Assembly (NCBI GenBank): GCA_016793485.1
Contig: JAEULZ010000016.1
Coordinates: 155,837 to 219,836, forward strand
Length of the DNA: 64,000 nt
Direction of reading: 5' to 3'
DNA from: Mesorhizobium sp.
GTDB lineage: Bacteria; Pseudomonadota; Alphaproteobacteria; Rhizobiales; Rhizobiaceae
The notes beneath the pieces were generated by a model, which worked only from the letters and a program-made list of their open reading frames with translations, was not told the DNA's origin and did not search any database. This document shows, one piece after another, positions 22,075 to 38,225 of the stretch. Each line of letters starts with the position of its first letter. Position 1 is the stretch's first letter. The position numbers were made by a program, and so were the translations under genes.

Positions 22075-22076
22075 GT

Positions 22077-23179: not shown

Positions 23180-23202
23180 GTGAGGGCCTCTCGCGATGAG
23201 GG

Positions 23203-23772: not shown

Positions 23773-23918
23773 GGAACTAGGGTGGCCGTCAACCGTTGGT
23801 CAACCATTTCCAGTGTCAAAATAGGCCTTGCAGTTCCTAACAGGCCGTTTTGACGAGTGATTCGGAGAGTGCTATGCAACAACGAATCAACTGGCGCGGG
23901 GCCAGACAGGAGGGGAAA

Positions 23919-24125: not shown

Positions 24126-24993
24126 TGGTCTCGGCACGCCCAACGCGTGCGATGAAGTTCGACAAAAATATCTGCAGCAGCTCGAACGGCGCGTCGGCCG
24201 AACTGTTCTGGCGTACTATTCGGGCTTCCTCCAGAAGCGCTCTGCCGATGGCAGGTTTCACCCGGAATGCGCGATAACGGACCTCGACATGAACGGCCTT
24301 ATGGCCGTGGTTCACAATGTCGACCGGACACGCGGCCTCGATCTCATTCTTCATACACCAGGTGGAGGCATTGAGGCCGGACGCTCAGCGGTAGAGTATC
24401 TCTACAAGATGTTCGGACTGGATATTCGTGTCATCGTCCCTCACATGGCCATGTCTGTCGGGACCATGATTGCTTGTGCATCCAGGGAGATCGTGATGGG
24501 TAAGCACTCCTGCCTCGGGCCAACCGATCCTCAAGTGAAGGGCCACCCAGCGATGGGCGTTCTGTCAGAAGTGGATCGTGCCATAGCGGAAATCAAAGCC
24601 GAACAGCTTAAGGCCATACTCTGGCAGCAGGTGTTCTCGAAATATCCGCCCGCTTTCATTGCCGACTGTGAGCGGTCACTGGAAGGCACGCGAGAAATGG
24701 TCACGACCTGGCTGCGCCAAAACATGTTCGCTGCGGCGGGCGATCCTGGAGCGGCGGCGACAGAGACCGTGAACCGACTGATGGACTATGCGGGCACAAC
24801 AGAACATGGGCACCATTTCCTGATCGATAAGTGCCAGGAGATGGGACTGACCGTTGTCGCGCTGGAGGATGACCAGAACCTTCAAGAAGACGTACTAAGC
24901 GTGCATCACTCCTTTGTCGCCACGTTCGCAAAGACGCCGTCGATTAAGCTTATCCAGAACGCTGCTGGCGCCAACTGGACAGTCGCGGGCTAA
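24091..24993 (+). CDS. ClpP-fold serine protease (SDH/S49-like)
   Basis: LDLILHTPGG, VPHMAMSVGTMIA (nucleophile Ser), LGPTDPQ, EHGHH. Confidence 0.85.
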   Translation: MPTWNDINAEIDGLGTPNACDEVRQKYLQQLERRVGRTVLAYYSGFLQKRSADGRFHPECAITDLDMNGLMAVVHNVDRTRGLDLILHTPGGGIEAGRSAVEYLYKMFGLDIRVIVPHMAMSVGTMIACASREIVMGKHSCLGPTDPQVKGHPAMGVLSEVDRAIAEIKAEQLKAILWQQVFSKYPPAFIADCERSLEGTREMVTTWLRQNMFAAAGDPGAAATETVNRLMDYAGTTEHGHHFLIDKCQEMGLTVVALEDDQNLQEDVLSVHHSFVATFAKTPSIKLIQNAAGANWTVAG

Positions 24994-25010
24994 TACCAAC
25001 CAACTTTCGT

Positions 25011-25268
25011 TTACATGCCTGCGGCTGCTCTGTGCGCCTGCGCAATCAGACGGGAGATTGCGACTCGATCTGCGACCTCAGAGCACGAAAAATGCCCGTG
25101 CCGATAGGCACCATGCGCCATGCCCCGAGGAGCGCCACCCCCAGCGCCATGCATGCGACAGACATGCTTTCCCCGGACCGCAGGCGCCTTGCAGCGCAGC
25201 CCCGACCGCTTCGACTTGGCTTTGCATCTAAGCGCTGCATTCGCACGGTGCATGGGGTTAGCCTCCAT
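25011..25268 (-). CDS. HGGxSTG-like zinc-finger protein
   Basis: RCKAKSKRSGLRCKAPAVRGKHVCRMHG...GAPRG...YRHG; start uncertain. Confidence 0.7.
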   Translation of the reverse strand: MEANPMHRANAALRCKAKSKRSGLRCKAPAVRGKHVCRMHGAGGGAPRGMAHGAYRHGHFSCSEVADRVAISRLIAQAHRAAAGM

Positions 25269-25917
25269 TTTTCTCACTCCCCCCGTGCTGGACGTTGCCG
25301 ACGATCGCCTGTCCGCCCTGTTCGACGTTGACCCTTTCGACATAGACACGCTGCTCTCCTTTGGAACGATACCGCTTCAGCGCTTCCACCTGGGCGGTGA
25401 ATGTGCGGGCGAGTTTGTTGAAGGCCTTCTCGTCGGCGTCCTGCTGCAGGATGGTGGCCGCATGGGATAGCCTGCGGGAGAATGTCATCATCGCCATATG
25501 CACCGCCGCCATCTGTGCGCCAAGCATCGCTTCCACCTGGTCTCGTGGCTCAACTCCAGTGATCACCGAGATCACGAAATTGCAGGCATTCTCATCGACC
25601 TCTTGGCCGGGCGAGGCGATGTTGGCAATCTGGTTGAGCAGGCCGCTGGTGAAGTCGGCATTGCACGTTCCCATCGCCTCCATAAGCAGCGTGTAGCCAG
25701 CCGCTCCATTCGCATGGTCGATTGAGATGTGACCTTGGCCGTCCTTCTTGGTGACCTTGAGCCGTGGGACCGGGTTGGCTTTCTGGCGACGCGTATGTTG
25801 GCGACGCATAGCTTCATGCTCGAGACGGTTGGCCGGCTCATAGATCTTCTTCAGCTTCTTGTCGGTGGCGTCCTCTTCGGGCTCTGCGACAGGCACCACG
25901 TTTGACTTCCTGCTCAA
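25258..25917 (-). CDS. conserved-looking mobile-element hypothetical protein
   Basis: 219 aa; EPRDQVEAMLGAQM, KLARTFTAQVEALKRYR, VNVEQGGQAIVGNV. Confidence 0.7.
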   Translation of the reverse strand: MSRKSNVVPVAEPEEDATDKKLKKIYEPANRLEHEAMRRQHTRRQKANPVPRLKVTKKDGQGHISIDHANGAAGYTLLMEAMGTCNADFTSGLLNQIANIASPGQEVDENACNFVISVITGVEPRDQVEAMLGAQMAAVHMAMMTFSRRLSHAATILQQDADEKAFNKLARTFTAQVEALKRYRSKGEQRVYVERVNVEQGGQAIVGNVQHGGSEKNGG

Positions 25918-26252
25918 TGTCTTGTCTCCCCGATGCGGCGGATGTCTTCAGCGGCGAGTCTGGCAAGCAGGTTGACCGCATGCTCGATCATGATCTGGCC
26001 GAAGTGGTGGTAGCAGAGAGCATTCGCCCAATCGTCACGCTGCCGGCGTTCCTCGGCGACGGTGTGGCAGCCGCGGGCGAAGGCGAGGAAAGTGAACAGG
26101 TGATCGACATTGCCTGCCGGTCCATCCAGGACTCGATCGACTTCTGCCTGTAGCTCGCCGGGAATGCCGTCGCCGGTGGCCTGCGCCTCCATCCATCTCT
26201 CGATGCCGCGCATGAGATCGGGAAGGGTGGGGATGCTGATCTGGTCCGTCAT
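25914..26252 (-). CDS. hypothetical protein
   Basis: MTDQISIP start; stop overlaps next start. Confidence 0.55.
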   Translation of the reverse strand: MTDQISIPTLPDLMRGIERWMEAQATGDGIPGELQAEVDRVLDGPAGNVDHLFTFLAFARGCHTVAEERRQRDDWANALCYHHFGQIMIEHAVNLLARLAAEDIRRIGETRH

Positions 26253-26290
26253 CTTCCTTGTCTCCTGTGTTTCCGGTATTCTTCGCCACG

Positions 26291-26500
26291 ATGGCCTATG
26301 ACCACTTCCGACCACCTGAGCACTTCTCGCCGAGAGGGCGTTTCCTGTTCCGGGCGCTGTGCTGGGTGACATTCATCGTCGGTATGCTGGCCTTCAGCTA
26401 TTTCGTTGTTCCGATCATCGCGCAGTACGTTTCCCAGCCCTTTTCGGAGTGGGTAGGGAACACCATCTTCGGGCCTAAGGACGCTGCCTCCCCACGGTGA
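26291..26500 (+). CDS. small single-pass membrane protein convergent with ejection-like gene
   Basis: 69 aa from MAYDHF; hydrophobic stretch FLFRALCWVTFIVGMLAFSYFVVPIIA. Confidence 0.55.
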   Translation: MAYDHFRPPEHFSPRGRFLFRALCWVTFIVGMLAFSYFVVPIIAQYVSQPFSEWVGNTIFGPKDAASPR

Positions 26501-28563
26501 TCTCCAGCGGCCGGCGTTCCTGCTGAGGCAATGCCGGAAGCGATCCACCCCTGAGCGTCGCACCACCCGTTCCTGAAGGGTTGACCGGGACAGGCCTCGT
26601 CGTCGCGGCTCGTGCCCTGCTGGTGCGTGCAACGGCTCCTGCGCTCCGTGTGGCAGTTCCTGCAATGGCACCAAGCCCAAGCGATTCCAGAGGCCCCAGT
26701 CCACCCATATGGCCACCCCCGGCTGCGAGCGCCGTGACGATGCCCTGGGCGTACTTCTGCAGCGTCGGCATCAGCCGGTTGGCTGTGTTCGAGAAGTTCT
26801 GTCCTGAACGGTTCGGCGACATGGCGCGCATGACATTGGCATAGGCCGCCATCATCTTGCGCTCCTCCTCGGAGAACAGGACGTTGGCAACGGCACGGCC
26901 ATCGCCCTTCAGCATGCCATCCAGGTTCTTGGCGATCTGCGATGGGTTCAGCGTCTCGTCGCCGGCACGGGTTGCACGAAGCCAGAACGACTGACGGATG
27001 CCAGACCAGTGCGGGCTGTCGGCGCCGAGATGTTTTTTCAACTCCTGCGCGGTCATAAACGCACTGCCTTTCGGAGAGGCGACAGAGGTGCCCCACAGAA
27101 GCTTGCCGACCTCTTCAGGACTCATATCCTTGTCCACGATGGACCGTAGGCGCGCCTGTGCCTCATAGCGGGGATTAAGACCTGCACCCTGCTTGCGGCG
27201 CGGCTCTGCCATGGCCTTGTACTCGGACCATTTGGATCGGGCCGTCTTCAACTCGGCGAGCACATCGTCGCTGGCGCTGACAAGGCCGCGTTCAAAGATA
27301 TCATCTGTCCAGTCATCGAGCGCACGGCTGATTGACTTCAATGCAGGCGCATCCGGTCCCATCGGCGGGAAGTTCTTGCGCACAGACGAGCGCATGTTTT
27401 CGATCCACCGCAACTGGGCTTGGACACCAGACACGTCGCCGGTCTCTTTTGGAAGCCGGCCAATGTAATCGTCGATAAACTTGAGGGCTCGGGATGCTCC
27501 CTGATGGTACATCGGATCCACGACGATCTGGTCTGCATCGAGCCGCTGCCCGATAAAGCCGGGAAGGTCGCGTACGGCGTCGCCCGATACGAGCACGTCG
27601 GGATTGTTCACCGAAGCCTCATAGGCGTCCTGGCTGGCAGCCTTCAGCCCATCACGCTTTCCACGGAGCGCACCGGGCACGGTGTCATAGGCGTCAGCCT
27701 GTCCGGCAATGCGCGGCTGCTGACCCGCGATGCGACCTTGTACGTCATCGATCGACTGACCGAGTGCTGCACGCTGCGCCTGGTCGAATGCCTGCATGTC
27801 GCCCTGAGAGCGAAGCTGATCTTCGATATTGGCCTGGCTGACAGAGCGCGTCGCCTGTGCACGGGAAAGCGGGATGCCGAATTGTTCCGCCTCCGAAACG
27901 TTGGCCGCTGGATTGACGCCGGGTGCGGCATCGCCGGCGCCCTGAAATGCTCGACGGTAAAGTGCGCCACCTCCAGTGGCCAAGCTTTCTCCAGCGAGAC
28001 CAAATCCCGCTCCTATGGGCACATTGTACGCCGCGCCCTCAACTCTTTCGCGCGCGTTCTCGCCGCTACCTGCCCCATAGAGGCCTGCCGCAATGGCACC
28101 GTCTGCCGATCCACCGAGAAGACGCACCAGCCAGCCCTTGCCCGCCTGCGCCGCATTGGCAGCGAGAGACAGCCCACCCTTGGCGAGCGCGATTCCACCG
28201 CCGACGCCGCCGGCAATCTGTCCGCCGAGATGGGAATACGGGTATGCCTCGGCATCAGCATCTCCCTGAGCGGATTTCGCCGACAAGCTCATCGTACCCT
28301 TTGCCATGACCACCGGGCAGCATGCCGCCGAGAGAGCCGACCGCAGCCGCAGCCTCATCTGCGAGCCCGAATGTTGCCGTGTCAGCAAAGCCTCTCGCAA
28401 TGGCACGGGCACGACTGGGCCGATCGAGTGGATCGCTATCCTGCTGCCCGACAAGCTCAAAGCCGGCAGGTGGCGGCGGAATGTCGGATCCGCTCTGCAT
28501 GGGCACAAGCTCGAAGCCTGGAGGCGGTGCTGGGATTTGTGATGCTGTTCCGGCCATGTCCAT
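26475..28563 (-). pseudogene. large phage DNA-ejection-like protein split by a frameshift near 28269
   Basis: N-terminal ORF (PAPPPGFELV x2, ARGFADTATFGLADE) ends ...GEIRSGRC*, while the other frame continues QGDADAEAYPYS into the 677-aa ORF; removing one base joins them into ~695 aa; could be a sequencing error. Confidence 0.7.
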
Positions 28564-28568
28564 TGTCC

Positions 28569-28871
28569 TCAATGCAGGTTGCCAGTTTCGTCGGCCTGGC
28601 CGCTCGCAATCGCCATAAGCTCCTGATCGGTCATCTCGATCATCGGCCGGTTGCTGACCACGGCCATCTGCTGCATGGGCTTGCCATCGAGGCGATCAGC
28701 GATTTCCTTGATCGCAGAGACGTCGCCGGCAATGGCCTTGGTCACGAGGATCTCTGCCAGTTCGCGCAGCCTGGGCTGTCCGCTCTCGCCGGTTTCGTGC
28801 ACGGCAACGCGCAGCATGTTGGCGAAGGTCTTCTCGCTCTTGCGGCGCCCGCTGTTCGAATTTCCGGCCAT
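28569..28871 (-). CDS. terminase small subunit-like (DUF5681-like) protein
   Basis: MAGNSNSGRRK, LVTKAIAGDVSAIKEIADRLDGKPMQ, MTDQEL. Confidence 0.6.
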   Translation of the reverse strand: MAGNSNSGRRKSEKTFANMLRVAVHETGESGQPRLRELAEILVTKAIAGDVSAIKEIADRLDGKPMQQMAVVSNRPMIEMTDQELMAIASGQADETGNLH

Positions 28872-28905
28872 TTTTAATATGCCCAAGCTGTTGGTTTCAT
28901 TTGCA

Positions 28906-30720
28906 TCAGCGGACAGGGCTCCACTGCTGGCCATCCCATTCCAGTTCCTCGCCTGTCTGGGGATTACGGGCGCGCTGGCGGCCGGTGGATGAACCAGCAC
29001 CGCGAGTTGCGCCGGAGCCTTTGGGCTGATCCGGGAAAAGCGGATTGGCCTCTGACCAGCGTGCAAGCTCGTCATCGAAGCCGGCATTGATCCTGCCGCC
29101 GTTACGTTCAGCGTACTGCCGGGCAAGCTGGGCGACCTGCTGCTTGCGCTGGTTCAGCTTGCGCTGGATGCCCACCAACTGCTTGTTGCCCTGAGGGGTG
29201 TTCTGCAGGTTCGGAACCTGGTCCAGCACGAAGTCACGGTCGGCATTGGAGAAGCCGGAGCCGAGAGAACCGCCCATGCTGTCGAGAGCAGCCTGCTTGG
29301 CCATGGCGTTGAAGGTCTCGATGCTGTCGATACCGTCTGCGCCCTCGATGCCGAGTGCCTGGCCGTATCGCTTCAGAGCGGTGACGGAACCGGATGCAGC
29401 GCCCGAGTAGAAGCCCGGATCGGACATTGCCTGATCCATCACATCGAGGGCGTTGAGCGCACGCTGTGCCGTCTGCGACCCGTCCTGAATCTCCATGAAG
29501 CGCTTTGCGTAGCCCTCACCGAGCGTCTTGTCGTACCCCTTCTCGGAGCCAACGTTAACGTTGGTGGCGCTCGCCCGCTTCTGATCGAGCTGGTACTGTG
29601 CAAAACCGGGATCGCGCTGGCTGTACTGATATTCTCGCATGTCGTCAGTCGGCTTCACGTCGCCACGACGAAGCTGATCGACCTCAAGCAGAGCTTTCTC
29701 GTAAGCCAGCTTCTTCATCGGATCGCCCTGATCCTGCATGGCGGCAATACGGGACCGCGCCACGTCGATCGCCAGCGGGCGGGTGATCGGGTTCGCCATC
29801 AGCTGCTTCATCAGGGTGGGGTCGAGATTGAAGCCGCCTGTCGAGAGGGAGCCGCCCTGAGGCTGTGGCATCTGACCACTACCCATAGGCATGCTCTGCC
29901 CGACAGCGAGGTTCTCCAGCGCCCCCTGCGATGGCGATGCGCCGAACTGCTGGGCGTAGCGCTCAACCTCCTGCATGCGCGCTGCGGTCTCGCCTCCGGG
30001 CTGATCGTGACCGGCAAAGCGCCATGCCGCGTTCATCAGTTCCTGCGCTTCCTGCGGTGAGCGAGCAGCATTGAGCTTCTGGATCAGCGATGGGTCTTCC
30101 TGGACGAGGAACTGCGCCTGTGTCTCGGGCGAAGGAGAATTGGGATCGTCGCCGGCCTGCTGGGCAAACTGCTGGAGAGCCTGTAGACGTGGACCGCGCC
30201 ACGACATGATGCCGCCAGATGTTCCGGGCTGTCCGGATTGGCTGGGATCGTCCCACTGGCCAAAAGCGTTCTGCGCCTTGAAGCCGCTTTCGCGAGAGCC
30301 GGTCGCAGCTATTGCCGACAGTGCAGCCGGGTTGTTTACGCCGCCGGCTTTGACCGTGCGCATGAACCGACCGAAGATGTCACTACCCTGTGGCAGGCGA
30401 TCCTGCTTGGGCGCTGCAGTCGGCATCGGGGAGCGCTCGTCGCTGAAGCCCCGGGCGACGCGCTGGGACGGGTCCATGCCGATATCGGGCAATGGTGCGC
30501 GCGTGACCTGTCCCTGAGACGGCGCTGCCAGCGAAGCAAGGCTCATCGGCTGTTGGCCGTTCTGCTGCATGCCACCCTGGCTGAAAAGTTGCTCGGTGAG
30601 CTTGGCTGCTTCCCGCCGGTCTTTGATGCCGCGAGAGAACTCAAAACCAGTGCGGAACGCATCGTCGGCGCCACGCGAGTCGGCAAGGAAGTTGAGTTCC
30701 GGGTAGGTGATGTTAACCAC
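28906..30720 (-). CDS. phage DNA-ejection-like protein with tail-lysozyme-type domain
   Basis: AIAATGSRESGF...GIMSWRGPRLQALQQFA...PETQAQFLVQE; Q/G/A-rich; C-terminal ARNPQTGEELEWDGQQW. Confidence 0.7.
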   Translation of the reverse strand: MVNITYPELNFLADSRGADDAFRTGFEFSRGIKDRREAAKLTEQLFSQGGMQQNGQQPMSLASLAAPSQGQVTRAPLPDIGMDPSQRVARGFSDERSPMPTAAPKQDRLPQGSDIFGRFMRTVKAGGVNNPAALSAIAATGSRESGFKAQNAFGQWDDPSQSGQPGTSGGIMSWRGPRLQALQQFAQQAGDDPNSPSPETQAQFLVQEDPSLIQKLNAARSPQEAQELMNAAWRFAGHDQPGGETAARMQEVERYAQQFGASPSQGALENLAVGQSMPMGSGQMPQPQGGSLSTGGFNLDPTLMKQLMANPITRPLAIDVARSRIAAMQDQGDPMKKLAYEKALLEVDQLRRGDVKPTDDMREYQYSQRDPGFAQYQLDQKRASATNVNVGSEKGYDKTLGEGYAKRFMEIQDGSQTAQRALNALDVMDQAMSDPGFYSGAASGSVTALKRYGQALGIEGADGIDSIETFNAMAKQAALDSMGGSLGSGFSNADRDFVLDQVPNLQNTPQGNKQLVGIQRKLNQRKQQVAQLARQYAERNGGRINAGFDDELARWSEANPLFPDQPKGSGATRGAGSSTGRQRARNPQTGEELEWDGQQWSPVR

Positions 30721-30722
30721 GG

Positions 30723-30905
30723 TCAGTTGCTCCTCTGCATTGCGACAAGCGCTGCAGTCTCATCGACAACACGATGGCCGAAGCCGGTGGGAAGTGTCTC
30801 GACGCCGGGCAGTCGGCCGGCACGCGCATCAGCGATGATGCCGCCAATCGGCCGACAGTCGCGCTTGTGGCGGCTCCATAGGGCCATGAGGGTCAGGTCG
30901 CTCAC
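30723..30905 (-). CDS. small hypothetical protein
   Basis: 60 aa; start overlaps upstream stop. Confidence 0.5.
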   Translation of the reverse strand: MSDLTLMALWSRHKRDCRPIGGIIADARAGRLPGVETLPTGFGHRVVDETAALVAMQRSN

Positions 30906-31057
30906 GCGGCAATCCTCCGTGCAGCTTCCGTCGCCGTCTGGCGGAGGAAGTCGGAAAGTGTAAGCCCACGACGCCGTGCGATCTCGATCAGTTGGCGCTT
31001 CTCATCGCTACTGACACGCACCTTGATCAGCTCGTTCATGGGTTTGGTAAAGCGCAT
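30902..31057 (-). CDS. ribbon-helix-helix DNA-binding protein
   Basis: IKVRVSSDEKRQLIEIARRRGLTLSDFLR. Confidence 0.75.
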   Translation of the reverse strand: MRFTKPMNELIKVRVSSDEKRQLIEIARRRGLTLSDFLRQTATEAARRIAA

Positions 31058-31146
31058 GGCTGCCTCCAGATCGACTGGAGGCAATCTAGCATGGCTCGCG
31101 TGTCCACAGAAGTCATAAAGACTAAGTAAAACAACATGTTAAGTGT

Positions 31147-31191
31147 CGTTCAGGGACGTTCACGTGCGTTCGCAGCCGTTCCTGTGCGTAC
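31147..31191 (+). repeat. 10-bp phased CGTTC array
   Basis: CGTTC at 31147, 31157, 31167, 31177 and CGTAC at 31187. Confidence 0.75.
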
Positions 31192-31321
31192 GACTGCGCT
31201 GGCGGTACGCTTGAAAAAAAATACGAATCTGGATCAATGGGTTGCGTGCAAACAGGCAACGAGTGGGCTGTTTTTGCGCAGTGCCGTTATTGCCTTCTTA
31301 AGGAGGATGGGCCATATCTCC

Positions 31322-31400
31322 CCGTAACAACACCCGCCACGCCTCGGACGAAACTTCGGTTTCGAACTGCGCACCCCGGCGGGTTTTTGTTTTTGGCGGT
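31322..31400 (+). ncRNA. candidate abiF-type leader/antitoxin RNA
   Basis: promoter-like TTGCCT (31290)...CATATC (31313); outer stem ACCCGCC/GGCGGGT plus U-run; inner CGAAAC-TTCG-GTTTCG hairpin. Confidence 0.65.
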
Positions 31401-31423
31401 TCAGCAATCCCCGGGATACCGGG

Positions 31424-32326
31424 ATGAAGTTCACCAAGCCATCGCTTTCCATCGCGGAACAAATCGCGCGGATTGAGGCTCGTGGGATGGTTGTTCCAGA
31501 TCACGGCATCGCTACCCACTATCTTCGTCACATCAGCTATTACCGACTCAGGGCTTATTGGCTTCCTTTCGAAGACGCAGCTCCAGCTGATGGGGAACAC
31601 ATATTCAAGGTGGGAACCAGTTTTGACGATGTCTTGGCACTCTATGTTTTTGACAGGCGTCTTCGGCTCCTGATCATGGACGCGATCGAACGGGTGGAGG
31701 TATCTCTGCGCGGCTGTTGGGCGCATCATCTGGCAATGAAATATGGGCCACACGGCTACCTCGATCCGGCGCTGTACCATCATCCGGATCGCTATGCCCA
31801 ATCGTTTACGACCCTCATATCGGAGGTAGATAAATCGAAGGACACGTTCATCCTACACTACAAGCAGAAGTACGATGATCCCCAGCATCCGCCGATTTGG
31901 ATGACTGCCGAAATCATCTCGCTTGGTCAGCTTTCAATGTGGCTCAGCAACCTGAAAGAGCGCGCCGACCGCCAGGCAATAGCGAAACCCTATGGACTGG
32001 ACCAAGTTATCCTTGTCTCGCTGGCGCACCATCTCACCTACATCCGGAATATTTGCGCTCATCACGGGCGCCTCTGGAACAAGCAGGTGACGGTAAAAAT
32101 GATGGTACCCAATTCGCCTGCGAGCCTGAAACTTGCAATGAACCCGGCGTCGCAGGGGCGAATCTACAATACGCTGGCAGTGCTTGGCTATCTGCTTGGG
32201 ATAGTCGCACCCGGTACTCGCTGGCGTCAGGAACTCATAGAACTGATGGATAGCTCGCCGTTGGCGGACACAGCGGCGATGGGCTTCCCGCCAAACTGGA
32301 AGAACATGCCGGCCTGGTCAGTGTAG
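31424..32326 (+). CDS. Abi_2 (AbiD/AbiF) family HEPN abortive-infection protein
   Basis: KPSLSIAEQI, ISYYRLRAY, LYVFDRRLR, PPIW, RNICAH (Rx4H). Confidence 0.9.
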   Translation: MKFTKPSLSIAEQIARIEARGMVVPDHGIATHYLRHISYYRLRAYWLPFEDAAPADGEHIFKVGTSFDDVLALYVFDRRLRLLIMDAIERVEVSLRGCWAHHLAMKYGPHGYLDPALYHHPDRYAQSFTTLISEVDKSKDTFILHYKQKYDDPQHPPIWMTAEIISLGQLSMWLSNLKERADRQAIAKPYGLDQVILVSLAHHLTYIRNICAHHGRLWNKQVTVKMMVPNSPASLKLAMNPASQGRIYNTLAVLGYLLGIVAPGTRWRQELIELMDSSPLADTAAMGFPPNWKNMPAWSV

Positions 32327-32381
32327 GGGGTCATATAGGCGACCTTCGACCAAGCGATGGAGGAGAAGAGGACATCCCGAT

Positions 32382-34118
32382 TCACCTGCTGTTCTTGGTC
32401 GGGCGAACAACTTCGATATCGACAGTCCGGATCGAGCGTTTCGATGTCTTCGTCTCCTTGAGGCCGCCGCCTTTGATTGGAAAAAGCAGTTCGCCTTGGC
32501 CTTCGACGTGCTTTTTCGATCTTCTTGGTTGGCGGGCAGGCATTGTTGATCGGCCGACATCGGGCGGGTCGACAACGCCAGGCACCTCCAGCGCACCACG
32601 CTGAAAAAGCATGTCCACGGTTATAATCTGAATCTTTGGCACGCGCTTCGATGGAGGACCCACATCGCCCTCTGAAAACGCTTCTCTTGTCATTGGGCCG
32701 GTAGGTGGATTGAGGCAGATAAGTACGCCGAATTCGGCGTTTTCCCGCTTAATGACCGACTTCAATTTATGAACCGCATCAACACCCACATTCAATCCGC
32801 CTTTTACGGAAACCACCGCACGGTTGGGCTGTTCGATGCCGACCCGATGATATCGAATGATACCATCGATCCCGCCGTCCGCTCCGGGTTTTTCTTTGGG
32901 TAGGCCTCCTAAGGCAAACACTGCCCACTTCTGAAATTCCAACCAATCTCGTGCCGCCAGAACGCTTGCGTCGTTTGCATCGCGCGGTTGGCCGAGCACT
33001 TTGTAGGTGTCTTTCACACCGTTACCGAACGCTTCGGCCAAGCGGCTCTCAATAACATGTATTGCAAGGTAGGTGACGTCGACCCCAATCCATGCCCGCT
33101 TCAAGCGTTCAGCGGCTTCAACAGCCGTACCACAGCCGCAAAATGGATCTAGCACCACTTGCCCGGGTTCCGTAGCCGCTTCGATTATCCGCTCCAGTAA
33201 CGCGAGCGGTTTCTGCGTCGGATAGCCAATACGCTCCTTCGCTTGCGAGTTCACGGGAAAGATATCCGTCCATACATCGCCCAGGGCAACGCCCGGCCTT
33301 TGGTCCAGATAGTTCTTTAGACGCGGCATTCCACGCTTGCTGTAAACAAGTCTGCCGTCCGCTTCGAACCGCTCCATATTCTCTCTGGAATAAGCCCAAT
33401 AGCGCCCCTGCGGCGGGCGGACGCCTTTCCAATCGTAGGACGTATCGCCGCCGGGCTTAGCAGCGGTGAGGTCGCTTGTGGTGAACTGTCGGCCGGTGTC
33501 GGCCTCCTTGGAGGAATAGTGACTTGTTATGTAATCGTCGCTGAGGGGCGCAAATAGCACCTTCCATGTGCCCCGCTCCGACTTACCGTAGTAGAGAATC
33601 GTGTCGTGTGTTCGCCCGAAGCGGGACAAACCCTGAGCGGCATCACTATGAGCGCTTGTTCTTTTCCAGACAATTTCGTTTCGGAAGCATTGAACCCCGA
33701 AAATCGTATCGAGTAGCAATTTGAGGTAATGGCTGGCGGTCGGATCACAATGTAGGAAAAGGGAGCCGGAAGATTTCAGCACTCTCCGCATTTCCACGAG
33801 GCGTACGGCCATCATGGCAATGTAGGCCATCATTTTGCTGTCGCCGAACACCTTCTTGAAGGCGTCTAATAGTGCGCCGGCTTCTAGGTGCCTAGCGGCG
33901 GTTTCGTTCAACGCGCGCTGCGCATCGCGACCCCAAGTCCAAGTGTCCTCGAACGCGTGTGATTGAGCTTGAGACGGCCCGCCCCGCTTAGTTCCGTAAA
34001 GTACATTGTAGTTGGCGTTGGAGTTGAAAGGAGGGTCGAGGTATATCAAGTCGACCACCTCTGCGGGCATATTTCGGAGTACGTCTAGATTATCACCGAA
34101 ATGTAGTTCGTTCATCAC
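32382..34118 (-). CDS. beta-class N4/N6 DNA methyltransferase with C-terminal Mrr-like nuclease domain
   Basis: DLIYLDPPF, GYPTQKP, LDPFCGCGT; C-terminal GADGGIDG...VSVKGG. Confidence 0.85.
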   Translation of the reverse strand: MMNELHFGDNLDVLRNMPAEVVDLIYLDPPFNSNANYNVLYGTKRGGPSQAQSHAFEDTWTWGRDAQRALNETAARHLEAGALLDAFKKVFGDSKMMAYIAMMAVRLVEMRRVLKSSGSLFLHCDPTASHYLKLLLDTIFGVQCFRNEIVWKRTSAHSDAAQGLSRFGRTHDTILYYGKSERGTWKVLFAPLSDDYITSHYSSKEADTGRQFTTSDLTAAKPGGDTSYDWKGVRPPQGRYWAYSRENMERFEADGRLVYSKRGMPRLKNYLDQRPGVALGDVWTDIFPVNSQAKERIGYPTQKPLALLERIIEAATEPGQVVLDPFCGCGTAVEAAERLKRAWIGVDVTYLAIHVIESRLAEAFGNGVKDTYKVLGQPRDANDASVLAARDWLEFQKWAVFALGGLPKEKPGADGGIDGIIRYHRVGIEQPNRAVVSVKGGLNVGVDAVHKLKSVIKRENAEFGVLICLNPPTGPMTREAFSEGDVGPPSKRVPKIQIITVDMLFQRGALEVPGVVDPPDVGRSTMPARQPRRSKKHVEGQGELLFPIKGGGLKETKTSKRSIRTVDIEVVRPTKNSR

Positions 34119-34256
34119 CGCTGCCTCTTCCGACGCTGCGGAAAATTTACCAAGTTGGGATGATCAGGCGGTTTACCATCATGGTTACCGCCTGCTTAAC
34201 GCGGACAGCTGCGGGTCCGATGACGAAGGCGATGGAAGAGATGAGCGCGAGGTGGG

Positions 34257-34922
34257 TCATCCACGCGCACTCGTATCGCGAACGATCCTGCTGCTCAGGA
34301 GTGCGCGGCTGACGTCGCCGATCGGTACAGGGGATATGGTAGATATAGATGTGCGTGCTTTTTTCACGCCATCAACATCGCCAAACGGCCCTTTATGGCG
34401 TGCATCTTTCACGCCATTGGGGTGCTTTTTGCACGCCATGCAGTCTGGAATGGCGTGCTTTTTGCACACGTATGGCGTGCTTTTTTCACGCCGCGTTTTG
34501 TTTTTCTCGGCTGCTGCGGGCTCCCAACTCTTGAACTCGTAGGTCGGCGTCAGGGAGCGCTCGGGGAAGTCGGCTGGCAGTTCGGTAAGACGCCAGGTTG
34601 TCGCGCGACCAGCGTTTTGGAAACGAACCTTCCAATTGAACGTGCCCTTCTGGATGGCAATGATAAAGCCACGATCCTGAAGTTCCTTGAACCCGACAAT
34701 GACAGGCCTGTTGGAGCAGCCGAGCAGCTCGGCCGCCTCACGATAGGACATCGAGATGTCACCGTTGTTCATTCCGGTGAACTTCGCCCGCAACTCGATG
34801 TAGAGCAGCCGGGCATAGGGACTGAGAGACCGCCACGCGTCGGTCTTGCGAATCCAGTGGAAGAGTTGCGTATAAGCGGGGCCGCCCTTCTTATTGCCAC
34901 GACGGTCCACGCGGCTCATCAC
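34257..34922 (-). CDS. winged-helix replication initiator-like protein
   Basis: LSPYARLLYIEL...NNGDISMSYREAAELLGCS...FKELQDRGFI; iteron-like repeats inside the 3' half. Confidence 0.7.
   Translation of the reverse strand: MMSRVDRRGNKKGGPAYTQLFHWIRKTDAWRSLSPYARLLYIELRAKFTGMNNGDISMSYREAAELLGCSNRPVIVGFKELQDRGFIIAIQKGTFNWKVRFQNAGRATTWRLTELPADFPERSLTPTYEFKSWEPAAAEKNKTRREKSTPYVCKKHAIPDCMACKKHPNGVKDARHKGPFGDVDGVKKARTSISTISPVPIGDVSRALLSSRIVRDTSARG
34351..34494. repeat. five palindromic iteron-like repeats inside rep gene
   Basis: consensus TGGCGTGC-TTTTT-(G/T)CACGCCA at ~34351, 34396, 34418, 34451, 34473. Confidence 0.8.
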
Positions 34923-35428
34923 GCCACCGCCTTTCCGGGAGCGAACTCGCCAAAATGCTCTTTCTCGGCGGCGATGCGCGCGGCAATGGCATCCTCGATC
35001 TCAATGAAATGGCCGAGCGAGACCGTGCGGTTGTCGATGCCGATGTATGCCTGCCATTTCGAGGAAGCTTTGACGAAGGTTACGCCGACACGACCGCTGC
35101 CGGTATCCTTGTCAGGGCGCCGGTTGCGGGCATTCTGGAGCGGAGTGGCTTCCCGGAGGTTCTTCCACCTGTTGTCAGCCCGCATGCCGTTGATGTGGTC
35201 GATGTGATGCTGCGGCCACTCGCCCGTCATCAGCAGCCAGATCACGCGGTGGGCCTTGTAGAGCCGGTAATCGACCTCGACTTGGGTATAGCCGTGGCTG
35301 CTGCGCGTGCCCACCAGTGCACCTTTTAAAGCGCCGGGACGGGCAATGCGCCAGTTCAGGGAACCGGTCTCGGGATCGTAGACCAGAACTTCCTGGGCGC
35401 GTTCGTAGGTGAGGATTGGCTTGCTCAT
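34919..35428 (-). CDS. HNH endonuclease with AP2-like domain
   Basis: YKAHRVIW...IDHINGMRADNRWKNLR; GRVGVTF...WQAYI...LGHF. Confidence 0.9.
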   Translation of the reverse strand: MSKPILTYERAQEVLVYDPETGSLNWRIARPGALKGALVGTRSSHGYTQVEVDYRLYKAHRVIWLLMTGEWPQHHIDHINGMRADNRWKNLREATPLQNARNRRPDKDTGSGRVGVTFVKASSKWQAYIGIDNRTVSLGHFIEIEDAIAARIAAEKEHFGEFAPGKAVA

Positions 35429-35628
35429 CAGACCCTCCCGCCGATCTGTGCCAGCTCGCAGACGACGCGAGCCATGCAGGGAGAAATACGGAAGCGCTGG
35501 GCGATTATTTCCGAGGCGATTTCCGTTGCGGAGGAGGTGGCCCTGGGGTATTCGAATGGTGTCACCGCATTCGAAATTCCGAGGCCGCCGCGCTTACCAG
35601 AGCCGGCGGTTTCGTGTTTCTGGATCAT
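35428..35628 (-). CDS. small hypothetical protein
   Basis: 66 aa, in operon between Xis-like and HNH genes. Confidence 0.5.
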   Translation of the reverse strand: MIQKHETAGSGKRGGLGISNAVTPFEYPRATSSATEIASEIIAQRFRISPCMARVVCELAQIGGRV

Positions 35629-35639
35629 CGGTCACCGCC

Positions 35640-35816
35640 TTACGCCGCAACCGGAAGCGACTTCACGTAGCGTTCAAGATCCTCGACGAGGATAAGCGTG
35701 CTGCGGCCGTTCTTGCGAGGGGTGAGCTTCTTTTCCGAAAAGAGCTTGTAGATGGAGGTCCGAGAGATGCCGGTCATTTCGACCGCCTCCGGAATCGAGA
35801 CTGCGAGCTTGGTCAT
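35640..35816 (-). CDS. excisionase-like HTH protein
   Basis: SIPEAVEMTGISRTSIYKL...PRKNGRSTLI. Confidence 0.85.
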   Translation of the reverse strand: MTKLAVSIPEAVEMTGISRTSIYKLFSEKKLTPRKNGRSTLILVEDLERYVKSLPVAA

Positions 35817-35950
35817 GGGCTTGAGGTTTCTCGCCGGCAGTAAGCCGCCGGTGCGCACCCCGGCGAATACCGGAGCGTCCCTCAGATGCTGCATTTCTCA
35901 GGGCGGGGATAATCCCCAACTGCGAGAAATTTTCGACGGAGTTGCTCACG

Positions 35951-36781
35951 CTACCCGAGCGCTGTCGCGACCCTTGAACGAGAGGGCGGTTTTTCCTCAC
36001 CCGCGAGAACAGCCAAGGCTCCAACGAACCGAACAAAGTCGCTCTGCTCGCCTTCGTTCACGATCACCTTGTTGGCAGTTGCCATGCGTCCGGTGAGTGA
36101 AGTCCACACCTTCGCCACGAGCTTGACGAAGTTCGGCAATGCCGGATCATCCTGCCCTCGCGTCCTGTTCAGGAGATCACCATTCACATGTTGACTCGAG
36201 AATTCTTCGCCCGCCTCCGCAATTACAGAGAGGAGTCTCTCTAGGCTTCGCTGCTGGAAATCCGTCGCGAGCCAAACGCCGCCGTCGTCTATGAACTCTG
36301 AGCGCTCCGGGAGAAAGATGCGCTGCTTGAAAAACTCATGGAGATACCCGAGGTGGCCACGTGCTTCGGCCTTCTTAGGATCGGGGAGCCTATGGGAGTG
36401 GGCCGCGAGCTGTATCAATTCATGGCGCAGTTTGCTTGCTTGGGACGATATCCGGCCAAACATCTCTTTCACATCGTTTGGCCGCATCTCGTCGTCGTAG
36501 GTACTTCGCTCTTCGCGTTCGAATCGGTATTGATTTATGGCGAAGGCCAACCACGGCCATGCGCGTCGCACAGCGACCTGATCTGTTATCCAAGGTTCGA
36601 TCGCCTCAGCTATGTCCTCATGAAGGTACTTTTCACTGGCCTGTTCGAAAGCCGCCCGATCAAGCTGGACTCCGGGCAGATCCAAGGGCCCGCCTAGCTC
36701 TGAATACAGCTTGTCTAGCCTGGACGGGACCGCCGACAACGACGATGGCAAACGTGCCTTCCTGTGAGAAGAATCTTCCAC
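35951..36781 (-). CDS. hypothetical protein
   Basis: long ORF downstream of integrase; GTG start at 36781 chosen from SD-like GAAGG, uncertain. Confidence 0.6.
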   Translation of the reverse strand: MEDSSHRKARLPSSLSAVPSRLDKLYSELGGPLDLPGVQLDRAAFEQASEKYLHEDIAEAIEPWITDQVAVRRAWPWLAFAINQYRFEREERSTYDDEMRPNDVKEMFGRISSQASKLRHELIQLAAHSHRLPDPKKAEARGHLGYLHEFFKQRIFLPERSEFIDDGGVWLATDFQQRSLERLLSVIAEAGEEFSSQHVNGDLLNRTRGQDDPALPNFVKLVAKVWTSLTGRMATANKVIVNEGEQSDFVRFVGALAVLAGEEKPPSRSRVATALG

Positions 36782-36858
36782 CGCAACACCTTCGCGATGC
36801 ACCGATAATGACCGCAGGGAAACCGGGAGGTGCTGCCCCGGCTTGTCGGCTGGCCGGC

Positions 36859-38067
36859 CTATCCCTGCGGGTTCGCTGTTTTCTTCCTGAACTGTGTCAC
36901 GTTGCCGGCCTTCACGGCGCCGACGTAACCGGCCCACGCCGTCATCAATTTGCGGCGCTTCTCCAAGGCGGTCGCCCGCCGGTAAGCGTTCTCTGTGTCA
37001 TCGCCAACCTTGTGCGCAAGGGCGGCCTCCGCGACCTCCCGCGGAAATGAGGTTTCGTCGCCAGCCCAATCTCGGAAGCTGCTTCGAAAGCCGTGGACCG
37101 TGAAATCCACCTTCATGCGCCCCAAAAGATTTTCCATGGCCATGTTGGACAGCGGGCGTCCTTCCTTCTGGCCGGGAAACACCCAACCGTGCTTGTCGCG
37201 GACCTCGTGAAGCTCTCGCAGGATTGCCACGACGCGAGGGACAAGCGGGACTTGGTGTTCCTTGCCCGCCTTCATGCGCTTCGCAGGGATTACCCACAGC
37301 GCGGCGTCCAGATCGATTTCGGTCCAGCGCGCGCCCAGCACCTCCCCAGAGCGACATGCTGTCAGAATAAGAACCTCAAGGGCCTTCGCTGACATGGCTG
37401 CACGGTCAAGCCGCCCAACGAATGCCGGAACCTGTGTATACGGCATTGCCGCATGGTGCCCGCGCTGGAGCTTCTGACGGGGCGGGAGAACGTTCTTGAG
37501 ATGGCCGCGCCACACGGCAGGGTTTTCCCCGGTGCGCCAACCCTTCGTCTTTGCGTAGTTCAGAACGCGCTCCATGCGCCCGCGCAGCCTGGAGGCGGTT
37601 TCGTTCTTCTCATTCCAGATCGGCGTAAGAATGGACAGCACGTCGTCTGTCGTCACGAGCGAGACGCGGCGGTCGCGGATCGGGCTGCAATACTCTGTCA
37701 GGGTCATACGCCACTGGTTGCGGTGCTTATCGTTGCGCCACGACCCGCCCATGGATTCGAGAAACCTGTCAGCGCACTCACCAAAGGTCGGCTCCGCTTC
37801 CTTGGAGCGCTCGGCGATGGGGTCACGGCCGGCCTGTACCTCTGAACGACAATCCGCCGCCATAGTGCGCGCGGCCGACAGCGTGACGGCGGGATAGGAG
37901 CCCAAGCCCATTTCACGTGGAACACCGCCACGCGTCCAGAGAAAGACCCATGCCTTCGATCCGGACACGGAAACGTTGAGGTAAAGCCCGCCGCCATCGC
38001 CGTAGCGCCTGGGCTTCTTCACGCTCTTGACCTGCATGTCCGAAAGCTTGTTCAGAGGGCGGGCCAT
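36859..38067 (-). CDS. P4-type tyrosine integrase of element 1
   Basis: DGGGLYL arm-binding domain, LTACRSGE, HGFRSSFRDW, ALAH, AYRR. Confidence 0.96.
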   Translation of the reverse strand: MARPLNKLSDMQVKSVKKPRRYGDGGGLYLNVSVSGSKAWVFLWTRGGVPREMGLGSYPAVTLSAARTMAADCRSEVQAGRDPIAERSKEAEPTFGECADRFLESMGGSWRNDKHRNQWRMTLTEYCSPIRDRRVSLVTTDDVLSILTPIWNEKNETASRLRGRMERVLNYAKTKGWRTGENPAVWRGHLKNVLPPRQKLQRGHHAAMPYTQVPAFVGRLDRAAMSAKALEVLILTACRSGEVLGARWTEIDLDAALWVIPAKRMKAGKEHQVPLVPRVVAILRELHEVRDKHGWVFPGQKEGRPLSNMAMENLLGRMKVDFTVHGFRSSFRDWAGDETSFPREVAEAALAHKVGDDTENAYRRATALEKRRKLMTAWAGYVGAVKAGNVTQFRKKTANPQG

Positions 38068-38070
38068 GGC

Positions 38071-38197
38071 TTCCCCTGTTTCTTCCCCTGTTTCATGGCC
38101 GGATTATAGCGAACGATGGCGAACAACTACAGACGCAATTTCGCGGAAGCCCTTATATTCTGCGCTCGTTCTCGGATGTCAGCGAACTACGGCGAAC
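38071..38197 (+). repeat. att arm of element 1: arm doublet plus phased repeats
   Basis: 23-bp doublet 38071-38093; (A/G)GCGAAC at 38108/38118 and 38181/38191. Confidence 0.75.
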
Positions 38198-38211
38198 GCT
38201 AGCTGGTCGGA

Positions 38212-38225
38212 CTCCTTCTCCGCCA
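38212..38225 (+). repeat. att core copy 2 (junction of elements 1 and 2)
   Basis: CTCCTTCTCCGCCA. Confidence 0.93.

What the first reader, a model, noticed from the sequence alone, without database searches (positions are those of the whole stretch)
31285..32326. AbiF-type HEPN toxin with a structured upstream RNA: probable RNA-antitoxin (type III-like) system
Seen: a promoter-like TTGCCT...CATATC, then a ~70-nt unit with outer stem ACCCGCC/GGCGGGT and U-run, an inner C(UUCG)G-capped 6-bp hairpin, a second possible partner TGGCGGT at 31394, and a CCCGG-GATA-CCGGG hairpin abutting the ATG. The protein keeps the RNICAH HEPN motif. Known: AbiF/Abi_2 genes are associated with a conserved cis-encoded RNA motif that acts as antitoxin in characterised cases, and AbiF is proposed as an ancestor of Cas13. 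Inference: an alphaproteobacterial variant with terminator-based autoregulation.
Basis: partly seen in the sequence, partly recalled or inferred. Interest (0 to 1): 0.75.

Follow-up and report, generated by a model that had tools for sequence, protein, structure and literature searches.

The report
AbiF toxin with its RNA antitoxin
This is an ordinary but intact copy of a known phage-defence module: a small RNA-cutting toxin (AbiF) preceded by the short hairpin RNA that keeps it switched off, carried on a phage-like mobile element in an alphaproteobacterium.

Summary
Observation confirmed and main interpretation supported, by homology only; no function was tested. ORF 31424-32326 is a full-length AbiF/Abi_2 HEPN protein: Pfam 1e-58; E 7e-54 and TM 0.88 to PbAbiF, PDB 8VZ6. 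The RNICAH motif aligns to the catalytic R210/H215.

At 31333-31384 lies the abiF RNA motif (Rfam RF03085). It scores 32.2 bits, below the 37-bit cut-off, only because a 23-nt UUCG-capped hairpin is inserted in its terminal loop. The core matches relatives that pass the cut-off and has the same layout as the RNA upstream of PbAbiF.

Across 79 homologous loci from many phyla the hairpin always sits just upstream of abiF. Its pairs covary strongly (8 of 10 pairs compensatory; 5 of 6 in the inserted hairpin). A promoter -10 box usually lies 5-7 nt before a conserved AACAACA 5' end. A U-tract follows the outer stem everywhere, so the terminator design is family-wide, not alphaproteobacterial.

Predicted product: a ~65-70-nt RNA (about 31325-31392), with abiF made only by read-through. 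The proposed second partner TGGCGGT is chance. The hairpin touching the ATG recurs in relatives but is weakly supported.

The cassette sits in a ~21-kb element integrated at tRNA-Ser. No RNA-seq covers this organism. It is a new member of a known kind.

The parts
31289..31318 (+). Sigma-70-type promoter. The -35 is (A)TTGCCT at 31289-31295. The -10 is CCATAT(C) at 31312-31318.
   Evidence: TTGC and C(C/T)AT are invariant or near-invariant at fixed spacing from the RNA in 31 alphaproteobacterial relatives. In 79 loci, -10-like hexamers peak 5-7 nt before the conserved AACAACA. The generic E. coli-consensus scan did not call it.
31324..31394 (+). Predicted primary small RNA, about 65-70 nt. It consists of a 5' single-stranded AACAAC (31326-31331), the abiF-motif hairpin and a U5GU5 tail. 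The ends are inferred, not measured.
   Evidence: Own covariance model gives 68.9 bits, E 5e-18. The 5' AACAAnA is at least 90% conserved in 79 loci. The U-tract is conserved.
31332..31384 (+). abiF RNA motif (Rfam RF03085 architecture). P1 is 31332-31338 with 31378-31384. Bulged A at 31339. P2 is 31340-31342 with 31369-31371. The 3' bulge CACCCC is at 31372-31377.
   Evidence: Rfam gives 32.2 bits against a cut-off of 37. P1 plus P2 are 99.1% paired over 75 distinct sequences, with compensatory changes in 8 of 10 pairs and 0 of 500 shuffles as good. The core layout matches the RNA upstream of PbAbiF.
31349..31364 (+). P3, a clade-specific extension hairpin CGAAAC-UUCG-GUUUCG inserted in the terminal loop of the motif.
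   Evidence: 5 of 6 pairs show compensatory changes and 99.5% of cells are paired in 31 alphaproteobacterial loci. G-U is the commonest pair at one position, so the structure is read on the + strand RNA.
31378..31394 (+). Intrinsic-terminator-like end: the GC-rich P1 3' arm directly followed by UUUUUGUUUUU.
   Evidence: The 12 nt after P1 hold a mean of 8.5 T in 79 loci against 2.5 in background. 97% of loci have at least 7 T against 1.4% of background windows. Not measured experimentally.
31410..31423 (+). Hairpin CCCGG-GAUA-CCGGG abutting the AUG. The only SD-like purines (GGGA, 31413-31416) lie half in the stem and half in the loop. Possible translational damper.
   Evidence: In most of the 31 alphaproteobacterial relatives the predicted fold pairs to within 3 nt of the start codon; the clearer hairpins differ in sequence and often carry GGAG or GAGG in the loop. 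The mean z-score is only -1.0. Weak support.
31424..32326 (+). abiF gene, 300 aa, an Abi_2/AbiD/F HEPN toxin.
   Evidence: Pfam Abi_2 at 1.1e-58. PADLOC AbiD at 4.9e-72. PDB 8VZ6_A at E 7e-54 over residues 2-298. AF2 model with pLDDT 86 and TM 0.88 to 8VZ6_A.
32045..32062 (+). HEPN catalytic motif R208-N-I-C-A-H213.
   Evidence: It aligns to PbAbiF R210...H215. R210A+H215A inactivates PbAbiF, and R202/H207 substitutions abolish AbiFCd toxicity (PMC12373285). The residues are invariant in 15 homologues.
16880..38225 (.). Integrative phage-like element of about 21.3 kb that carries the cassette. It is inserted at the 3' end of tRNA-Ser(CGA).
   Evidence: The tRNA lies at 16804-16893. The direct repeat CTCCTTCTCCGCCA occurs at 16880 and 38212. 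Exact 23-nt arm-like repeats lie at 16948 and 38071. The integrase is at 36859-38067(-). A tail-lysozyme-domain protein, an HNH protein and a methyltransferase are present.

Best explanation
This is a self-contained AbiF / abiF-RNA module: a type III-like toxin-antitoxin and abortive-infection system carried as a moron-like cassette on a ~21-kb integrative phage-like element.

Proposed mechanism:
1. A constitutive sigma-70-type promoter starts transcription at about 31325.
2. The first ~60 nt fold into the abiF hairpin. It has P1, a bulged A, P2, a clade-specific UUCG-capped P3 and a conserved 3' bulge CACCCC.
3. The GC-rich P1 is followed directly by U5GU5, so most transcripts terminate there. 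This gives a ~65-70-nt RNA in excess.
4. A minority of transcripts read through into abiF. Translation may be damped further by a hairpin touching the AUG.
5. AbiF, a HEPN RNase with R208/H213, dimerises. Each monomer binds one hairpin RNA, whose bulge occludes the composite active site.
6. When RNA supply or stability drops, or a phage trigger acts, free AbiF cleaves RNA and arrests growth.

Shown here: protein and RNA homology, covariation, and conserved placement of promoter, RNA and U-tract.

Inferred from the characterised relatives: RNA binding, toxicity, neutralisation, the trigger and the phage-defence role.
For: Protein:
- Abi_2 at 1e-58.
- End-to-end match to PbAbiF 8VZ6 at E 7e-54.
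- AF2 model at TM 0.88, and 8VZ6 is the only significant PDB hit.
- The HEPN R/H motif aligns and is invariant.

RNA:
- Rfam abiF hit.
- The core sequence matches relatives that pass Rfam's cut-off, L035 at 55.2 bits and L066 at 45.6 bits.
- One hit per locus, always upstream on the same strand, in 79 of 80 loci; the one without (L030) has no upstream sequence. There were no strong hits elsewhere in 494 kb.
- Covariation is seen in P1, P2 and P3.
- The locus encoding the very protein of 8VZ6 has the same hairpin plus a U-rich tail just upstream, at 58.5 bits.

Architecture:
- Conserved promoter.
- Conserved U-tract.
- No neighbouring gene is conserved with the cassette.

Literature:
- RCd22 neutralises AbiFCd in cis and in trans, and transcription terminates prematurely (PMC12373285).
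- The AbiF ncRNA blocks the HEPN site (PMC13064643, PMC12737573).
Against: - No transcript data exist for this organism.
- Metatranscriptome contigs for two relatives were uninformative about a short RNA.
- The Rfam score is below the curated cut-off (32.2 against 37).
- The simple terminator scan did not call the site.
- The leader's folding energy is not exceptional (z -0.99).
- Toxicity, RNA binding and any phage phenotype are untested for this clade.
- The protein is only about 33-38% identical to the characterised PbAbiF and about 29% to the C. difficile phage homologue.
Confidence: 0.82

Rival explanations
1. The hairpin is only a cis-acting transcription attenuator or leader. It limits abiF expression by termination. 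The released RNA has no trans function and does not bind the protein.
For: P1 plus the U-tract looks like a terminator in nearly all loci. In C. difficile the cis effect alone suppresses toxicity under laboratory conditions (PMC12373285).
Against: A bare terminator needs no conserved sequence. Yet the bulge CA, the loop CUC and the 5' AACAA are at least 90% conserved across phyla. The same motif is the RNA bound in the solved PbAbiF complex locus. RCd22 acts in trans (PMC12373285). In an Ensifer plasmid the promoter and RNA remain intact although the toxin gene is deleted.
Confidence: 0.1
2. The module is a functionally decayed or domesticated remnant. The protein is no longer toxic, and the RNA is conserved only through recent common descent.
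For: No functional data exist for this clade. The element looks small for a complete prophage (about 21 kb; no capsid or terminase was recognised).
Against: The ORF is full length with every invariant family residue, including the HEPN R/H. Homologues span 42-86% identity, with compensatory RNA changes that indicate purifying selection on the structure.
Confidence: 0.05
3. The main role is element maintenance, that is post-segregational addiction of the integrative element, rather than defence against other phages. The molecular mechanism would be the same.
For: The cassette sits inside an integrative element. Homologues occur on rhizobial megaplasmids. PMC12373285 discusses prophage maintenance as an alternative.
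Against: Lactococcal AbiD/D1/F give phage resistance (PMC13064643). PADLOC classes it as AbiD. The two roles are not exclusive.
Confidence: 0.3

Closest known systems
PbAbiF-AbiFr (Prevotellaceae AbiF bound to its ncRNA; PDB 8VZ6; Zilberzwige-Tal et al., Cell 2025, as cited in PMC12373285 and PMC12737573)
   Same: The protein is the same length (300 aa) and aligns end to end (E 7e-54; TM 0.88). The RxxxxH residues align. One abiF-motif hairpin lies directly upstream, with P1, a bulged A, P2, a loop starting CUC and a 3' bulge starting CA, followed by a U-rich tail.
   Different: Identity is about 33-38%. The window RNA has a 23-nt insertion forming a UUCG-capped P3. Its bulge is CACCCC rather than CAAAUG(U), and its 5' tail is AACAACA rather than ACUAGAA. 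The leader to the AUG is longer (40 nt against 18 nt) and includes a start-proximal hairpin. The promoter is proteobacterial. Some Prevotellaceae loci carry two motif copies (L088, L161), whereas this one has a single copy.
AbiFCd-RCd22 of Clostridioides difficile prophage phi027 (PMC12373285)
   Same: It is an Abi_2 HEPN toxin on a prophage. An upstream ncRNA carrying the RF03085 motif is co-transcribed from one promoter. Premature termination yields an abundant short RNA plus rare read-through mRNA.
   Different: RCd22 has two abiF motifs plus a separate terminator hairpin (about 100-130 nt). Here one motif is itself the terminator hairpin (about 65-70 nt). The window protein matches the C. 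difficile phage homologue at about 29% identity. The C. difficile gene sits inside the lysis module, whereas this one lies between a tail-lysozyme-domain gene and a methyltransferase gene near the integrase end.
Lactococcal AbiD / AbiD1 / AbiF (PMC13064643, PMC11381338)
   Same: Same Pfam and PADLOC family. The upstream non-coding sequence is required for function or for tolerating the gene.
   Different: Plasmid-borne in Firmicutes and distant in sequence. The phage phenotypes are known there and unknown here.
Classical type III TA systems (ToxIN, CptIN, TenpIN)
   Same: The logic is shared: a protein RNase toxin is neutralised by a cis-encoded structured RNA, with a terminator between RNA and toxin setting the ratio.
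   Different: Those antitoxins are tandem repeats processed by the toxin into units that form heteromeric rings. Here there is a single, non-repeated hairpin, and the toxin has an unrelated HEPN fold.

Membership tests
AbiF / Abi_2 (PF07751) HEPN toxin | Abi_2 domain above Pfam's gathering score | tested here: met
   199.1 bits against a cut-off of 25.6, covering profile positions 1-184 of 184. PADLOC AbiD at 4.9e-72.
AbiF / Abi_2 (PF07751) HEPN toxin | Full-length homology and the same fold as the solved PbAbiF | tested here: met
   8VZ6_A at E 7e-54, residues 2-298 aligned to 6-299. AF2 model with pLDDT 86.2, TM 0.88/0.89 and rmsd 2.8 A. It is the only PDB hit with E below 0.001.
AbiF / Abi_2 (PF07751) HEPN toxin | HEPN R-phi-x-x-x-H catalytic motif with a polar residue after R | tested here: met
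   R208-N-I-C-A-H213 aligns to PbAbiF R210...H215. It is invariant in 15 homologues.
AbiF / Abi_2 (PF07751) HEPN toxin | Homodimer with a composite active site; RNase activity; toxicity | not testable with these tools
   Only a monomer model was made. Activity needs experiment.
abiF RNA motif (Rfam RF03085) | Score at or above Rfam's gathering threshold (37 bits) | tested here: not met
   32.2 bits, and the site is not listed in the gathering-mode scan of the window. The shortfall comes from the 23-nt loop insertion. L035 has the same core and a short loop and scores 55.2. Other long-loop relatives score about 32.
abiF RNA motif (Rfam RF03085) | Hairpin architecture: 6-7-bp GC-rich P1, bulged A, 3-bp P2, variable terminal part and an asymmetric 6-nt 3' bulge beginning CA, supported by covariation | tested here: met
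   99.1% of cells are paired, 8 of 10 pairs have compensatory changes, and slid controls give at most 47% paired. The layout matches the Rfam consensus alignment and the PbAbiF locus.
abiF RNA motif (Rfam RF03085) | Located immediately upstream of an abiF/Abi_2 gene on the same strand | tested here: met
   In the window it lies 40 nt before the ATG. 79 of 80 related loci have one hit upstream on the same strand; the one without (L030) has no upstream sequence.
Type III toxin-antitoxin system | RNA antitoxin binds and neutralises the protein toxin directly | not testable with these tools
   Inferred from PbAbiF-AbiFr and RCd22-AbiFCd (PMC12373285, PMC12737573, PMC13064643).
Type III toxin-antitoxin system | Transcription terminator between the antitoxin RNA and the toxin gene | tested here: inconclusive
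   The sequence signature is strong and conserved: GC-rich P1 followed by a U-tract, 8.5 against 2.5 T per 12 nt. The generic scan did not call it, and no 3'-end data exist.
Type III toxin-antitoxin system | Antitoxin encoded as tandem direct repeats processed by the toxin (ToxI/CptI/TenpI style) | tested here: not met
   There is a single copy. No second strong hit occurs in the window and no tandem repeat lies in 31050-31440. This is typical of AbiF systems and does not count against AbiF membership.
CRISPR-Cas type VI (Cas13) | Two HEPN domains in one large effector plus a CRISPR array with variable spacers | tested here: not met
   The protein is 300 aa with a single HEPN domain. There is no repeat array nearby and the RNA has no variable segment. 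It is related only as the proposed ancestor class.

The most novel reading that the evidence does not exclude
In this proteobacterial lineage the antitoxin hairpin is itself the intrinsic terminator. AbiF binding to the nascent P1 and bulge could therefore directly tune read-through into its own gene. That would make a protein-responsive attenuator that fixes the toxin:antitoxin ratio. The clade-specific P3 extension could act as a specificity determinant that insulates co-resident AbiF systems from cross-neutralisation. The start-codon-abutting hairpin would add a second, translational brake.
Probability: 0.2. Interest if true: 0.5.

Novelty: new member of a known kind. Interest (0 to 1): 0.27.

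Why it matters
AbiF-RNA modules were characterised only in 2025, and they are the proposed ancestors of Cas13. According to the papers read here, the tested examples come from Prevotellaceae, C. difficile and Lactococcus.

This locus and its 78 relatives show that a large proteobacterial branch uses one compact design. It runs from the promoter through a 5' AACAACA and a single abiF hairpin that doubles as the terminator, to the toxin gene.

Standard annotation misses part of this. Of the 11 instances scored with Rfam's curated threshold (the window and ten relatives), only two passed. PADLOC reports a single-gene 'AbiD'.

The practical value is better annotation, through a broader covariance model. 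It also offers a compact, well-defined RNA-protein pair from alphaproteobacteria for comparative work. It does not change the current picture of how these systems work.

Tried and rejected
1. Alternative pairing of the P1 5' arm with downstream TGGCGG as a switch. It is not conserved: 10 of 79 loci against 8.7 expected. It also lies downstream of the terminator. Rejected.

2. An outer helix P0 between the 5' AACAAG and the 3' CUUGUU of the U-tract. It is 86% paired in 31 loci, but there is no covariation and shuffles do as well. Left open.

3. A second abiF motif copy, as in RCd22. There is none in the window or in any of the 80 genome loci. The weak hit at 20096-20144 is a plain GC-rich hairpin.

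4. The 14-nt exact repeat of the motif's 3' half at 35852-35865 (D15). It lies inside an excisionase-like ORF, lacks the 5' arm, and one such repeat is expected by chance.

5. The 8-nt complement 31275-31282 with 31366-31373. It lies upstream of the promoter and is expected by chance.

6. RNA evidence. No RNA run holds the window. Metatranscriptome contigs for relatives L003 and L020 cover the leader and CDS at flat, low depth or are long DNA-like contigs, so they say nothing about a short RNA.

7. Conserved gene neighbours. None was found.

8. The original description of the motif (PMC5737381). The motif is not mentioned in the main text and no supplement is held.

Full report
**Observation**

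- TTGCCT lies at 31290-31295 and CATATC at 31313-31318.
- The outer stem is ACCCGCC (31332-31338) paired with GGCGGGT (31378-31384), followed by T5GT5 to 31394.
- The inner hairpin CGAAAC-UUCG-GUUUCG lies at 31349-31364.
- TGGCGGT lies at 31394-31400.
- CCCGG-GATA-CCGGG lies at 31410-31423 and touches the ATG at 31424.
- The 300-aa ORF runs to 32326 and carries RNICAH at residues 208-213.

**The protein**

The ORF is an Abi_2 protein (Pfam 1.1e-58, whole profile). PADLOC calls it AbiD (4.9e-72). It aligns end to end with chain A of PDB 8VZ6, 'PbAbiF dimer bound to ncRNA', at E 7e-54, and R208/H213 fall on R210/H215.

An AlphaFold2 model (pLDDT 86.2, pTM 0.85) superposes on 8VZ6_A at TM 0.88 and 2.8 A. 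8VZ6_A is the only significant PDB match.

The family is very large. There are 3063 hits at E up to 1e-20, and the closest named ones come from Nitratireductor, Rhizobium, Mesorhizobium and Sinorhizobium. R, H and the surrounding RNICAHHGRLWNKQ are invariant in 15 homologues.

**The RNA**

Rfam's abiF model (RF03085) matches 31333-31384 at 32.2 bits. That is below the 37-bit gathering score, and the alignment shows a 23-nt insertion in the terminal loop. A gathering-mode scan of the whole window therefore lists only the tRNA.

I fetched 80 genomic loci encoding homologues at 42-77% identity, from Alpha-, Beta-, Gamma-, Delta- and Epsilonproteobacteria, Acidobacteria, Cyanobacteria, Nitrospirae, Bacteroidota and Firmicutes. 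In 78 of them a scripted scan recovers the complete hairpin 20-120 nt upstream of the gene. The other two, L010 and L030, are cut by a contig end.

The consensus is AACAAcA-CCCGCC-A-CGC-CUC...GCG-CAccnn-GGCGGG-UUaCUUUUUU.

Counting pairs on the 79-sequence alignment gives these results:
- 99.1% of cells are paired.
- 8 of 10 pairs show compensatory changes. Examples are CCCCCC/GGGGGG, CCUCUC/GAGAGG, CCUGCC/GGCAGG and CGC/GCG changing to AGG/CCU.
- 0 of 500 shuffles reach the observed values.
- All slid controls fall below 48% paired.

The 23-nt insertion is a real helix. In the 31 alphaproteobacterial loci that carry it, 5 of its 6 pairs show compensatory changes and 99.5% of cells are paired. 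G-U is the commonest pair at one position, which puts the structure on the + strand RNA rather than in DNA. Other lineages carry different extensions at the same place (L041, L043, L047, L048, L076, L050). A variable distal stem is thus a family trait.

A covariance model built from the alignment scores the window site at 68.9 bits (E 5e-18). It finds nothing else of note in 64 kb. It finds exactly one site per locus in 79 of 80 loci and no second copies. These matches are by construction. The informative point is the absence of other hits in about 1 Mb of searched strand.

Rfam's own model passes its cut-off for L035 (55.2 bits) and L066 (45.6). It gives about 32-34 bits for the long-loop relatives and for L026 and L042. 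It misses L050, L072 and L079 at E up to 0.1.

**Link to the solved complex**

Using the PbAbiF sequence printed, I found metagenome contigs that encode the identical protein (L082, L083). Directly upstream lies ACUAGAA-CCCGCC-A-AGC-CUCUCAACGAU-GCU-CAAAUG-UGCGGG-UCGUUUUAUUUUU, and 18 nt further on comes the ATG. This scores 58.5 bits on RF03085.

The window RNA has the same layout. It differs in P3, in the bulge sequence (CACCCC) and in the 5' tail.

If PbAbiFr is numbered from the A seven nt before P1, then C32 and U38 fall at the first and last positions of this 3' bulge. Those are the nucleotides said to block the active site (PMC12737573). This numbering is my inference. The window equivalent of the first position is C31372. 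The CA that opens the bulge is conserved: C in at least 90% of the 79 sequences and A in all of them.

**Promoter, ends and terminator**

In the 31 alphaproteobacterial leaders, TTGC (-35) and C(C/T)AT (-10) are invariant or nearly so, at fixed distance from the RNA. Over all 79 loci, -10-like hexamers pile up 5-7 nt before AACAACA. The RNA should therefore start at about 31324-31326.

The 12 nt after P1 contain on average 8.5 T, against 2.5 in background. 97% of loci have at least 7 T, against 1.4% of background windows.

P1 plus the U-tract is thus a terminator-like signal across the whole family, and a U-rich tail is also present at the PbAbiF locus. It is not an alphaproteobacterial novelty. 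The predicted RNA is about 65-70 nt. Its MFE structure reproduces P1, P2 and P3 at -24 kcal/mol.

The generic terminator scan misses the site because of its loop-length rule.

**The rest of the leader**

The proposed second partner TGGCGG is not conserved.

In most alphaproteobacterial relatives the predicted fold pairs to within 3 nt of the start codon. The clearer hairpins differ in sequence and often have GGAG or GAGG in the loop. The folding z-scores are modest, with a mean of -1.0. I treat this as a plausible translational damper, not an established part.

**Context**

- tRNA-Ser(CGA) lies at 16804-16893.
- Its last 14 nt recur at 38212.
- Exact 23-nt repeats, probably integrase arm sites, lie just inside both ends.
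- A tyrosine integrase lies at 36859-38067(-).

These features delimit an integrated element of about 21.3 kb. It carries:
- a tail-lysozyme-domain protein,
- an HNH protein,
- a replication-initiator-like protein,
- a methyltransferase fused to an Mrr-like domain,
- a ClpP-like protease,
- a PD-(D/E)XK nuclease.

abiF is the only + strand gene among - strand neighbours. None of those neighbours recurs beside abiF in the 80 related loci. Promoter, RNA and gene therefore travel as one cassette.

Rhizobial megaplasmids carry the whole cassette at about 70% DNA identity. Sequenced phages carry only distant homologues, all below 60% identity and mostly from Firmicutes.

**Mechanism and comparison**

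The literature establishes the following:
- The C. difficile RNA RCd22 has two abiF motifs plus a terminator. It lowers abiF expression by premature termination and neutralises the toxin in cis and in trans by direct binding (PMC12373285).
- The PbAbiF dimer binds two ncRNAs that block the HEPN site (PMC12737573, PMC13064643).
- Lactococcal AbiD/F members need their upstream sequence (PMC13064643).

By homology, the window module should work the same way. It has one motif per transcript, as in PbAbiF, and the motif itself serves as the terminator.

Binding, toxicity, the trigger and the biological role (defence or element maintenance) are inferred.

**Verdict**

The finding is real and correctly interpreted, but it belongs to a known kind. 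The points of modest interest are:
- the family-wide fusion of hairpin and terminator,
- the conserved 5' AACAACA, which lies outside the Rfam model,
- the clade-specific P3,
- under-detection by Rfam's threshold.

**What could not be obtained**

No RNA run holds the window. Metatranscriptome contigs for two relatives were uninformative.

Noticed in passing
window 16880-16893 and 38212-38225; 16948-16970 and 38071-38105: The 3' end of tRNA-Ser(CGA) (CTCCTTCTCCGCCA) is duplicated 21.3 kb away. Exact 23-nt repeats (TTCCCCTGTTTC x2) lie just inside both ends. These look like attL/attR cores with integrase arm sites, delimiting a ~21-kb integrative phage-like element.
   Followed up: partly
window 34353-34492: Five copies of an 18-nt palindromic unit GCGTGCTTTTTTCACGCC at irregular 22-45-nt spacing (D1). 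They lie at the 3' end of the replication-initiator-like ORF 34257-34922(-). They are iteron- or origin-like.
   Followed up: no
window 31147-31186: Four CGTTC boxes spaced exactly 10 nt apart (CGTTCAGGGA CGTTCACGTG CGTTCGCAGC CGTTCCTGTG). They lie between the divergent 60-aa ribbon-helix-helix gene (30902-31084, -) and the abiF promoter. This may be an operator array for the RHH protein.
   Followed up: no
L081 2501-2666 (Ensifer adhaerens Corn53 plasmid AB, NZ_CP030264.1): The promoter, the complete abiF RNA and the first eight or so abiF codons (MKFTKPS...) are intact. The rest of the toxin gene is gone, replaced by the end of a convergent 411-aa gene. This is an orphan antitoxin RNA locus.
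   Followed up: partly
L088 794-830 and 932-968; L161 819-855 and 933-969: Some Prevotellaceae relatives of PbAbiF carry two abiF motif copies 114-138 nt apart upstream of the gene. Neither the 80 genome loci nor the window have two copies.
   Followed up: no
L020, L021, L022, L023, L077 (about 2860-3010): Nearly identical promoter-RNA-leader sequences occur in five Rhodobacterales records: an Arenibacterium plasmid, Pseudodonghicola, Celeribacter, Rhodovulum and a MAG. This suggests recent horizontal spread of one cassette.
   Followed up: no
window 32382-34118 (-): A 578-aa fusion of an N6/N4 DNA methyltransferase with a C-terminal Mrr_cat / inactive-REase-like domain. It converges on abiF with a 55-nt gap. 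It may be a second defence or anti-restriction gene of the element.
   Followed up: no
window 17034-18026 (-): A PD-(D/E)XK_13 / REase-ARP nuclease (Pfam 6.7e-87) lies directly inside the left end of the element.
   Followed up: no
window 20096-20144: A GC-rich hairpin GCCCGCCA...UGGCGGGC lies between two - strand ORFs. It gave a weak hit to my RNA model on both strands (16-17 bits). It looks like an ordinary bidirectional terminator, not an abiF motif.
   Followed up: partly
L001, L011, L020, L026, L042, L050, L072, L079 (motif sites): Rfam RF03085 at its curated threshold detects only 2 of 10 tested relatives, although all have the covarying hairpin. The long-loop subtype and the AAGGC...CCUCAAAC subtype fall below it.
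   Followed up: partly
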